11,866 nt of DNA, taken from the IMG/VR virus record IMGVR_UViG_2663762893_000001. One strand, written 5' to 3'. Source of the stretch: a virus (taxonomy: Monodnaviria; Loebvirae; Hofneiviricota; Faserviricetes; Tubulavirales; Inoviridae). A program made the translations under genes and the position numbers. Shown here piece by piece: positions 2,938 through 2,968 of the stretch (position 1 is its first letter; every line of letters begins with the position of its first letter). The notes below the pieces were generated by a model that did not search any database, was not told the origin of the DNA, and was given only the letters and a program-made list of their open reading frames with translations.

Positions 2938-2968
2938 AATATTACCCTAGTTAACCTAGGGTAATATT
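2938..2968. repeat. Perfect inverted repeat, 13-bp arms with 5-nt spacer (AATATTACCCTAG TTAAC CTAGGGTAATATT)
   Basis: Arm 2938-2950 is the exact reverse complement of arm 2956-2968. It sits 3 nt after the stop of the minus-strand 2972..3394 gene and at the point where GC content drops. Confidence 0.85.

What the first reader, a model, noticed from the sequence alone, without database searches (positions are those of the whole stretch)
2938..2968. Perfect 13-bp-arm palindrome at the compositional boundary between the two cargo genes
AATATTACCCTAG-TTAAC-CTAGGGTAATATT is an exact inverted repeat 3 nt after the stop of the 4-TM protein gene and about 67 nt upstream of the low-GC gene start. On the minus strand the T-run (ATTTTTA) begins only about 12 nt after the stem, so it is not a textbook intrinsic terminator. 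Its length and perfection are more typical of a dimeric protein-binding operator, or of a scar marking where the low-GC module joined the phage backbone.
Basis: seen in the sequence. Interest (0 to 1): 0.45.

Follow-up and report, generated by a model that had tools for sequence, protein, structure and literature searches.

The report
Palindrome bordering a prophage cargo cassette
A perfect 31-bp palindrome marks the upstream edge of a 1.2-kb foreign gene cassette in a filamentous E. coli prophage, and because it exactly fits the published binding motif of the host iron-sulfur sensor IscR it is more likely that cassette's control site than a terminator, though binding is untested.

Summary
The palindrome is real: 13/13 arms, 5-nt spacer, at 2938-2968. 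No shuffle reached 13 (0/300 window, 0/1000 local). The window is E. coli hipBA, then a 9.6-kb CUS-1/YpfPhi-like filamentous prophage, then dif.

Comparison with relatives shows a defined cargo slot at about 1766-2972. It lies between the dif-like attachment hairpin and the last codon of a conserved 140-aa membrane gene. Five alternative E. coli cargos occupy this slot. The palindrome occurs only with the 367-aa low-GC gene (17 of 5,426 genomes, two phage backbones). It is the outermost cassette element, 3-4 nt from the breakpoint.

It is not a canonical terminator, because it has no U-tract. It is not a repeated or mobile element and matches no Rfam family.

It matches the published IscR type-2 motif xxWWWWCCxYAxxxxxxxTRxGGWWWWxx at all 18 specified positions (about 0.006 expected per window). 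It scores like genuine ChIP-bound sites, although such scores are not rare.

Best reading, at about 0.4: a cassette-borne IscR operator controlling the AT-rich cargo gene. Rivals are an RNA stem-loop insulator or 3'-end stabiliser, and a functionless recombination scar. Modest interest; binding is untested.

The parts
2938..2968 (.). Perfect palindrome, 13-nt arms and 5-nt spacer. It is the outermost (upstream) element of the cargo cassette.
   Evidence: Identical in all 18 E. coli records that carry it. Hairpin dG is -17.2 kcal/mol as minus-strand RNA and -10.3 as DNA.
2941..2965 (.). Exact match to the IscR type-2 consensus WWWWCCNYANNNNNNNTRNGGWWWW (29-nt form 2939-2967). The symmetry centre is at 2953.
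   Evidence: 0 mismatches and the only such site in the window; shuffles give a mean of 0.01. All nine critical bases of AxxxCCxxAxxxxxxxTAxGGxxxT are present. A PSSM from 53 Yersinia ChIP-seq sites gives 13.9 and 12.8 bits on the two strands, against a leave-one-out median of 11.1 for real sites.
1766..2972 (.). Cargo cassette (about 1.2 kb, about 31% GC) filling the variable slot of the prophage. It holds the 367-aa ORF plus about 100 nt of upstream DNA that ends with the palindrome.
   Evidence: Homology to L001, L002, L003, L008 and L009 stops at 1764-1769 on the left and resumes at 2970-2973 on the right.
1767..2870 (-). Low-GC cargo gene, 367 aa (363 aa from the second ATG at 2858). The predicted protein has 2 TM helices and two beta-sandwich domains; function unknown.
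   Evidence: (PHROG 17621 only).
2917..2922 (-). Candidate -10 hexamer TACATT for a cassette promoter. It would place the IscR-type site at about -57 to -29. This is an inference only.
   Evidence: Read. The consensus scan finds no strong sigma-70 promoter on this strand.
2972..3394 (-). Conserved 140-aa gene with four hydrophobic segments (backbone, not cargo). Here its last codon is changed from TGG-TAA to TGA by the cassette junction.
   Evidence: (PHROG 4174).
3434..3462 (-). Backbone stem-loop between the repressor gene and the 140-aa gene, followed by UCUUUAUU (terminator-like).
3491..3937 (-). HTH (XRE/RstR-like) phage repressor, the first gene of the leftward operon.
1667..1765 (.). 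Prophage left end. It holds a dif-like site GGTGCGCATAA-TGTGCGACTCG-TTATGTTGAAA and a 24-nt-arm hairpin (1688-1746) with a second inverted dif-like arm. This is the fixed left border of the cargo slot, and the hairpin also works as a terminator-like structure.
11234..11261 (+). Exact chromosomal dif 28-mer at the prophage right end.

Best explanation
Shown: the palindrome is the cassette's own upstream element. It came in with a roughly 1.2-kb low-GC cargo cassette that fills the variable slot of a CUS-1/YpfPhi-type filamentous prophage integrated at dif, and it sits 3-4 nt inside the cassette's right-hand breakpoint. Inferred: it acts at the DNA level as a symmetric operator for a dimeric winged-helix regulator, most probably the host Fe-S sensor IscR (a type-2 box, bound by apo- and holo-IscR). 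Bound about 30-60 bp upstream of a weak cassette promoter at the edge of an AT-rich block, IscR would tie expression of the cargo gene to iron, oxygen or oxidative status. It could do this by activating the promoter or counter-silencing H-NS, as it does at Yersinia lcrF, or by blocking read-through from the phage's leftward repressor operon. The direction of control is not determined. The RNA hairpin that forms in any read-through transcript is, on this view, a by-product.
For: (1) The palindrome is cassette-specific. It is present in 17/5,426 E. coli genomes, always with the 367-aa gene, and absent from about 165 genomes with the same backbone and other cargo. It travels with the cassette into a second inovirus backbone whose regulator is unrelated. 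It is therefore neither a phage-backbone function nor the phage repressor's operator.
(2) Perfect DNA-level dyad symmetry over 13+13 bp, with no G-T positions, is beyond chance.
[quoted passage not shown] The odd-centred symmetry axis coincides. The expected count is about 0.006 per window and about 1 per E. coli genome. The probability that an arm of such a palindrome fits the half-site is about 1e-3.
(4) A PSSM from 53 in-vivo IscR sites (PMC8262890 Data Set S3) scores it 13.9 and 12.8 bits, the top two scores in the window. That is above the median (11.1) of real sites and above the E. coli sufA (8.1) and ydiU (11.5) sites.
(5) It resembles the experimentally bound lcrF site, AAAACCATATATACAGTATGGTAAT, against ATTACCCTAGTTAACCTAGGGTAAT here.
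(6) IscR is documented to act at AT-rich, H-NS-silenced, horizontally acquired promoters (bioRxiv 10.1101/2025.10.16.682990). It can activate or repress depending on site position (PMC8262890).
(7) It fails the terminator criteria.
Against: There is no binding or expression data. The IscR motif has low information content: PSSM scores of 12.8 or more occur about once per 16 kb in unrelated loci, so the PSSM score alone is not significant. A symmetrised PSSM from only six natural E. coli sites scores the palindrome at -2.1 bits. I compared the palindrome mentally with roughly 15-20 regulator consensus sequences before finding this match, which weakens the 1e-3 figure. Upstream regions of the gene's homologues in other genera lack the motif. 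No good sigma-70 promoter is predicted between the palindrome and the gene. Natural IscR sites are rarely perfect palindromes. The position 3 nt after a stop codon is the classic place for an RNA stem-loop.
Confidence: 0.4

Rival explanations
1. The palindrome acts as an RNA-level stem-loop. In the leftward transcript (repressor, then 140-aa gene, then cargo) it folds into a -17 kcal/mol hairpin 3 nt past the stop codon. There it works as a leaky, non-canonical terminator or attenuator, or as a 3'-exonuclease barrier. Either role would stabilise the upstream mRNA and uncouple it from the cargo gene.
For: The position immediately after a stop codon is sense-oriented for both flanking genes. The hairpin is stable. 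The backbone shows the same gene-hairpin-gene pattern, with 3434-3462 after the repressor and 1688-1746 after the cargo. Every homologue of the cargo gene examined has some stem-loop 45-125 nt upstream, each of different sequence, and at least two have U-runs. A metagenomic palindrome with the same arms (L011) also sits 8 nt after a stop codon.
Against: There is no U-tract within reach: the tail is CAAAUACUAAAUUUUU, with a U-score of 0.18 for the full stem and at most 1.9 for trimmed stems, against 2.1-4.7 for comparators. The scan does not call it a terminator. Other cargo types place their first gene 28-67 nt after the same stop codon with no hairpin, so the slot does not need an insulator. 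RNA function would tolerate G-U pairs and mismatches, yet the repeat is perfect at the DNA level. A ribosome terminating at the TGA would cover the 5' arm.
Confidence: 0.3
2. The palindrome has no present function. It is donor DNA that happened to lie at the end of the captured fragment, or a hairpin that itself provoked illegitimate recombination or template switching in a single-stranded replicon. Its perfection would then come from quasi-palindrome correction rather than selection.
For: The breakpoint lies 3-4 nt from the base of the stem, inside the last codon of the 140-aa gene, where relatives read TGG-TAA and this window reads TGA. All copies are 99% or more identical, so there has been no time for selection to be visible. 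Other cargo types carry a different junction relic, an 80-nt transposase-associated segment, at the same place. From general knowledge, single-stranded phages form such hairpins, and deletion or recombination end-points cluster at palindromes.
Against: It does not explain the exact fit to a 25-bp regulator consensus. No donor context has been found that would show the palindrome pre-existing elsewhere.
Confidence: 0.2
3. The palindrome is an operator for a different dimeric regulator, such as TrpR, a PadR-like protein, another Rrf2 protein or the phage repressor.
For: It shares the 9-mer CTAGTTAAC with the trp operator core GTACTAGTTAACTAGTAC (my recollection). The same 10-nt arms with a 4-nt spacer form a conserved palindrome at the start codon of PadR genes in high-GC soil contigs.
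Against: The TrpR CTAG-N4-CTAG spacing is not met, because the spacer here is N5. The PadR sites have a different spacing and come from unrelated bacteria, and the prophage encodes no PadR. The half-site does not recur in the repressor-gII control region at 3 or fewer mismatches. The cassette also lives in a phage with an unrelated regulator.
Confidence: 0.07
4. The palindrome is the end of a mobile element: abutted inverted repeats of an IS, a mini-MITE or REP-like repeat, or an attC or Xer-type recombination site.
For: Two 13-bp inverted repeats separated by 5 bp resemble an IR-IR junction. The slot is a place where DNA is exchanged.
Against: There is no second copy in the window. The pattern ATTACCCTAG-N5-CTAGGGTAAT gives 0 hits in IMG/VR and 0 in 185,579 species-representative genomes. 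In metagenomes the only hits with the same flanks are the cassette itself. It has no resemblance to dif.
Confidence: 0.03

Closest known systems
IscR type-2 (type II) binding sites of Enterobacterales (E. coli hyaA, sufA, ydiU; Yersinia yscW-lcrF)
   Same: It has a 25-29-bp odd-centred dyad WWWWCC-Y-A-N7-T-R-GGWWWW. All 18 specified positions and all nine critical bases are present. It is AT-rich, intergenic and upstream of a horizontally acquired gene. Its score falls within the range of ChIP-bound sites.
   Different: It is perfectly symmetric, whereas natural sites are degenerate. It sits on a filamentous-phage cargo cassette. It lies 3 nt after an upstream stop codon. No promoter has been mapped and binding has not been tested.
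Intrinsic (rho-independent) terminators and REP-like 3'-end stabilising hairpins
   Same: It is a stable stem-loop directly downstream of a stop codon, in the sense orientation.
   Different: It has no U-tract, and the GC core is only 6-7 bp. It is a single copy, not a repeated element.
attL-proximal variable ORFs of CUS-1 and YpfPhi (YPO2271/2272 versus orf1/orf1a), and toxin or moron slots of CTX-type phages
   Same: It belongs to the same phage family and integration site (dif, next to hipA). The variable region is likewise next to the attachment site, while replication, morphogenesis and secretion modules are conserved.
   Different: Here the slot borders are resolved to the nucleotide, five alternative E. 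coli cargos are compared, and a cassette-specific cis-element is identified. The published description mentions none of this (no occurrence of 'palindrom' or 'variable').
TrpR operator (GTACTAGTTAACTAGTAC)
   Same: It shares the CTAGTTAAC core and a CTAG-containing dyad.
   Different: The second CTAG is displaced by 1 bp and the flanks differ. This comparison rests on memory, not on a tool.
PadR-gene palindromes in high-GC soil metagenomes (ATTACCCTAG-AACT-CTAGGGTAAT)
   Same: The 10-nt arms are identical, and the palindrome is plainly protein-related because it lies in 62-68% GC DNA at the start of a PadR gene.
   Different: The spacer is 4 nt rather than 5, the host lineage is unrelated, and no PadR is present here. 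Most likely this is coincidence or convergence on a sequence that winged-helix proteins bind readily.

Membership tests
IscR type-2 binding site | Match to the published consensus xxWWWWCCxYAxxxxxxxTRxGGWWWWxx | tested here: met
   0 mismatches at 2941-2965. It is the only exact site in the window, against a shuffle mean of 0.01.
IscR type-2 binding site | The nine bases shown by mutagenesis to matter (AxxxCCxxAxxxxxxxTAxGGxxxT) | tested here: met
   9/9 are present. By the same count, natural E. coli sites have 1-5 mismatches and the lcrF site has 0.
IscR type-2 binding site | A score comparable to sites bound in vivo | tested here: inconclusive
   The score is 13.9 and 12.8 bits, against a leave-one-out median of 11.1 for 53 ChIP-seq sites. 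However, scores of 12.8 or more occur about once per 16 kb in unrelated DNA, and a PSSM built from six E. coli sites gives -2.1 bits.
IscR type-2 binding site | Location in the promoter region of a regulated transcription unit | tested here: inconclusive
   The site is 67-79 nt upstream of the cargo start codon. A candidate -10 hexamer (TACATT, 2922-2917) exists, but no consensus sigma-70 promoter is called on that strand.
IscR type-2 binding site | Binding by IscR and IscR-dependent expression | not testable with these tools
   This needs EMSA or anisotropy, ChIP and reporter assays.
Intrinsic terminator | Stable stem containing G-C pairs, downstream of a gene | tested here: met
   The stem has 13 bp with a core of 4 G-C pairs, dG is -17.2 kcal/mol, and it lies 3 nt after the TGA.
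Intrinsic terminator | U-rich tract within 0-2 nt of the stem | tested here: not met
   The tail is CAAAUACUAAAUUUUU. The scan does not call it a terminator. The U-score is 0.18-1.9 against 2.1-4.7 for comparators.
Repeated or mobile palindromic element (REP, MITE, IS ends) | Multiple copies in one genome or across genomes in different contexts | tested here: not met
   and 43/46: the only copies sharing flanks are the cassette itself.
Described RNA family (Rfam 15) | Match at the gathering score | tested here: not met
   No match at the gathering score. The best match at the E-value threshold is 23.7 bits against a gathering score of 60.
TrpR operator | CTAG tetramers separated by 4 bp within GNACTAGTTAACTAGTNC | tested here: not met
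   The spacing here is 5 bp. The consensus is recalled from memory.
Xer (dif-like) recombination site | 11-bp XerC and XerD arms around a 6-8-bp centre, similar to dif | tested here: not met
   A dif search with 3 mismatches finds only 11234-11261. The dif-like attL is at 1667-1700. The palindrome shares no arm with either.
CUS-1/YpfPhi-type dif-integrating inovirus (context of the finding) | gII, gV, coat, gIII-like, DUF2523, Zot/gI and secretin genes, an RstR-like repressor, and flanking dif and dif-like sites next to hipA | tested here: met
   A 9,565-bp circular record of the same element exists.

The most novel reading that the evidence does not exclude
A filamentous-phage cargo cassette carries its own perfectly symmetric IscR box. 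The host's Fe-S, iron and oxygen sensor would then decide when a phage-borne membrane protein is made. In addition, the cassettes of this phage family are swapped at a nucleotide-defined slot, with the Xer attachment hairpin on one side and the last codon of a conserved gene on the other. This hints at a cassette-exchange mechanism in dif-integrating elements in which a hairpin marks the non-Xer junction.
Probability: 0.2. Interest if true: 0.55.

Novelty: new member of a known kind. Interest (0 to 1): 0.35.

Why it matters
If IscR binds here, this would be a clear case of a mobile cargo gene arriving pre-wired to a conserved host global regulator. That would link a filamentous prophage of extra-intestinal E. 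coli to iron and oxygen sensing, as IscR does for Yersinia type III secretion. Two results are useful for annotating and engineering dif-integrating phages whatever the outcome. One is the nucleotide-level map of the cargo slot of CUS-1/YpfPhi-like phages. The other is the finding that the cargo gene family also occurs in non-phage modules that sit next to dif or dif-like sites. If the palindrome is only an RNA stem-loop or a scar, the finding is ordinary.

Tried and rejected
- **Canonical terminator:** rejected, because there is no U-tract. The d'Aubenton-Carafa-type discriminant I used was written from memory and proved conservative. It also scored a visibly good U7 terminator in L006 negative, so I rely on the U-tail score and the tool's scan rather than on d.
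- **Repeated or mobile element:** rejected.
- **Rfam family:** none.
- **Operator of the phage's own HTH repressor:** rejected. No related half-site occurs in 3938-4108, and the cassette also sits in a backbone with an unrelated regulator.
- **Conservation with the cargo gene family:** the palindrome and the IscR motif are absent upstream of homologues in L005-L007, L038 and L039. The upstream region is not alignable even at 76% protein identity.
- **Donor search:** nothing found in INPHARED phages or IMG/VR. PLSDB returned only the phage's own circular form.
- **Function of the 367-aa protein:** no Pfam or PADLOC hit. The AlphaFold model (pLDDT 82) gives only generic beta-sandwich matches. 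The AFDB50 library was unavailable.
- **Primary IscR papers:** Nesbit 2009 and Rajagopalan 2013 are not held. The motif is therefore cited from papers that quote it.
- **PSSM from six E. coli sites:** the alignment register is ambiguous and the model overfits. I replaced it with 53 ChIP-seq sites.

Full report
**Observation**

Window 2938-2968 reads AATATTACCCTAG-TTAAC-CTAGGGTAATATT: 13-nt arms, 100% complementary, with a 5-nt spacer.
- It lies 3 nt after the TGA of a 140-aa ORF (2972-3394, minus strand).
- It lies 67 nt before the first ATG of a 367-aa ORF (1767-2870, minus strand). RefSeq annotators use the second ATG at 2858.
- GC drops from about 0.49 to 0.27-0.31 across this point.
- No perfect inverted repeat longer than 11 appeared in 300 dinucleotide shuffles of the window or in 1000 shuffles of the low-GC segment.
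- The arm has no other copy in the window; hits at 3 or fewer mismatches are at chance level.

**Context**

The window starts with hipB/hipA. It then carries a filamentous (inovirus) prophage:
- an HTH repressor;
- a gII replication protein (Phage_CRI and G2P_X_C);
- a gV-like protein, a coat protein and a gIII-like protein;
- DUF2523, Zot/gI and a secretin.

An exact dif 28-mer lies at 11234-11261, and a dif-like site lies at 1667-1700 next to hipA. This is the organisation of CUS-1 and YpfPhi. For those phages the attL-adjacent ORFs are already known to differ (PMC4266046). A 9,565-bp circular 'plasmid' record (NZ_CP128883.1) is the same element, so it also exists as a free circle.

**The palindrome belongs to a cargo cassette and sits at its edge**

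Megablast against 5,426 complete E. coli genomes gave these counts:
- About 180 genomes carry the backbone.
- Only 13 match the whole region 1750-4100.
- Four more share only 1750-3492.
- More than 100 match only from window 2965-2973 rightwards.

Fetching representatives showed five alternative contents between two fixed borders:
- this 367-aa gene (window, L004, L010);
- DUF6953 plus a 264-aa ORF (L001, L003);
- an ECs_2282-family zinc-binding protein plus a 159-aa ORF (L002);
- two small ORFs (L008);
- a 250-aa ORF (L009).

The left border is ...GCGAACCAATT(A), directly beside the dif-like hairpin. The right border is inside the last codon of the 140-aa gene. Relatives, including eight other enterobacterial species, read ...TAT TA(T/C) TGG TAA. 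This window reads ...TAT TAT TGA TAT AATATT....

The cassette is therefore about 1766-2972. It contains the ORF and about 100 nt of upstream DNA, and the palindrome is the last element before the breakpoint.

None of the other cargo types has a comparable palindrome. The 116-bp region around the palindrome occurs in 18 records of 17 genomes, always at 99% identity or more and always with the gene. The same cassette with its palindrome also sits in a second inovirus backbone (L004). That backbone's small regulator gives no BLASTP hit to the HTH repressor here.

The 140-aa gene is backbone, not cargo.

**What the palindrome is not**

- *Canonical intrinsic terminator.* The consensus scan does not call it. 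As minus-strand RNA the stem is stable (-17.2 kcal/mol), but the tail is CAAAUACUAAAUUUUU. A distance-weighted U-score is 0.18 for the full stem and at most 1.9 for trimmed stems. The conserved hairpin after the cargo, the hairpin after the repressor, two terminators upstream of homologues and the trp terminator score 2.1-4.7.
- *Repeated or mobile element.* ATTACCCTAG-N5-CTAGGGTAAT gives no hit in IMG/VR or in one genome each of 185,579 species. The metagenome hits with the same flanks are the cassette itself.
- *Known RNA family.* It matches no Rfam family.
- *Conserved partner of the gene family.* Homologues at 36-76% identity in Enterobacter, Proteus and uncultured contigs have unrelated upstream regions. 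Each has a different stem-loop.

**A specific candidate: IscR**

- It matches at all 18 specified positions.
- It contains the nine bases of AxxxCCxxAxxxxxxxTAxGGxxxT (PMC4169559).
- Its odd-centred symmetry axis coincides with that of the motif.
- Exact matches are rare: a shuffle mean of 0.01 per window, about 0.006 analytically, and about 1 per E. coli genome.

By the same count, natural E. coli sites carry 1-5 mismatches, and the experimentally bound Yersinia lcrF site carries 0.

I built a PSSM from 53 sites under IscR ChIP-seq peaks (PMC8262890 Data Set S3). The Yersinia IscR DNA-binding domain is stated to be identical to that of E. coli.
- The palindrome scores 13.9 and 12.8 bits on the two strands, the two best scores in the window.
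- This is above the leave-one-out median of real sites (11.1).
- It is above sufA (8.1) and ydiU (11.5) and below hyaA (16.2) and lcrF (20.9).

There are caveats:
- The motif has low information content. Scores of 12.8 or more occur about once per 16 kb in unrelated loci.
- A PSSM from only six E. coli sites gives -2.1 bits.
- I tried many consensus sequences from memory before this one.
- No strong sigma-70 promoter is predicted. However, TACATT at 2922-2917 would put the site at about -57 to -29.

The biology is plausible. IscR activates or represses depending on site position. At lcrF it counteracts H-NS/YmoA silencing of an AT-rich acquired promoter. A 31% GC cassette in E. coli is the kind of DNA that H-NS silences (general knowledge).

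**Weighing the explanations**

- *Shown:* the palindrome is non-random; it is cassette-specific; its position relative to the breakpoint is mapped; it fails the terminator and repeat-family tests; and it fits the IscR consensus exactly.
- *Inferred:* IscR actually binds, and binding controls the cargo gene.

| Explanation | Estimate |
|---|---|
| IscR operator | about 0.4 |
| RNA stem-loop acting as leaky insulator or 3'-end stabiliser | about 0.3 |
| Functionless relic of the capture event | about 0.2 |
| Another regulator | less than 0.1 |
| Mobile-element end | about 0.03 |

The stem-loop reading is supported by the position after a stop codon and by the gene-hairpin-gene pattern of this operon. 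The first two readings are not mutually exclusive, because any read-through transcript will contain the hairpin.

**Comparison with the known, and novelty**

The variable attL-proximal region of CUS-1 and YpfPhi is known. The exact slot borders, the catalogue of alternative cargos and this cis-element are not in the literature I could search. If the IscR reading is right, this is a new member of a known kind, namely another IscR type-2 target, notable only for being perfectly symmetric and phage-borne. If not, it is an ordinary intergenic hairpin. Interest is modest.

Noticed in passing
NZ_CP128883.1 (L040, 1-9565); window about 1667-11233: A 9,565-bp circular record annotated as an 'untypable plasmid' of E. 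coli TUM14759 is this prophage, including cassette and palindrome, as a free circle. The phage is therefore probably active and replicating. The same strain has three chromosomal places that match.
   Followed up: partly
window 1667-1765: The prophage left end holds a dif-like site with a long central region (GGTGCGCATAA-TGTGCGACTCG-TTATGTTGAAA). This overlaps a 24-nt-arm hairpin whose other arm carries a second, inverted dif-like sequence (GGTTCGCACAATGACGTTATGCTAAAG on the minus strand). That is the layout of a CTX-type folded single-strand attP. The same GC-rich stem followed by UUUUCAAC also looks like the terminator of the leftward operon.
   Followed up: partly
L013, L015, L018, L019, L022, L025-L027, L029 (for example L027 12504-12527): High-GC (62-68%) soil metagenome contigs share a perfect 24-nt palindrome, ATTACCCTAG-AACT/AGTT-CTAGGGTAAT. 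It has the same 10-nt arms as here with a 4-nt spacer. Its last bases form the ATG of a PadR-family regulator (Pfam E about 1e-22) next to a large permease-like ORF. It is presumably an autoregulatory PadR operator on a leaderless gene.
   Followed up: partly
L008 2608-2660, L009 3455-3515, L005 4801-4883, L006 4566-4648: Two other cargo types start, right after the 140-aa stop codon, with a shared 50-70-nt two-hairpin segment (GGTAAAGTTCGGGTGTCACWGAACCCCGAACCGCnnnnGCGGT). In L005 and L006 the same segment follows ORFs with transposase-like HTH_23/28/32 domains. It looks like a relic of an insertion-sequence end, which would implicate IS events in cargo turnover at this junction.
   Followed up: partly
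L005 3166-3197 and 5001-6158; L006 3687-3712 and 5001-6232: Homologues of the 367-aa cargo gene outside phages lie in modules bounded by a dif or dif-like site on one side. On the other side is a copy of the same hairpin that follows the cargo slot here (74% DNA identity from the gene through the hairpin). L006 and L007 also have an integrase nearby. The gene family seems to travel in Xer-site-associated modules.
   Followed up: partly
window 1767-2870 (minus strand): The cargo protein is predicted (pLDDT 82) to have two TM helices (2-29, 146-167), a beta-sandwich between them and a second alpha/beta-sandwich domain. It has no Pfam or PADLOC hit and only generic Ig/CBM-like structural matches. 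The family is small: 21 clusters in Enterobacter, Proteus, Providencia, Morganella, Pectobacterium and Pseudomonas.
   Followed up: partly
window 3434-3462 (minus strand): A second near-perfect palindrome (13-nt arms, 1 mismatch, 3-nt spacer) lies between the repressor stop and the 140-aa gene. It is followed by UCUUUAUU, so it is a plausible attenuator or terminator inside the leftward operon.
   Followed up: partly
L011 820-844: A 35% GC metagenome contig carries ATTACCCTAG-ATAAT-CTAGGGTAAT, with the same arms, the same 5-nt spacing and a different loop. It also fits the IscR consensus exactly. It lies 8 nt after one ORF's stop and 36 nt before the next ORF's start, and neither ORF has a Pfam hit. 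This could be chance, since about 0.4 hits are expected per spacer length.
   Followed up: partly
L038 about 2860-2930: Upstream of the Proteus mirabilis homologue, the 9-mer TATTACCCT (one palindrome half-site) sits next to a canonical terminator (CCCCGU...ACGGGG-GUUUUCAAUUU). No second half-site is present. This is probably coincidence.
   Followed up: no
window 8642-8671 (minus strand): Inside the Zot/gI gene there is a 12.8-bit hit to the IscR ChIP-derived PSSM. It overlaps a 3-mismatch match to the palindrome arm (8643-8655, AATATAACCCTGA). It is at the level expected by chance.
   Followed up: no
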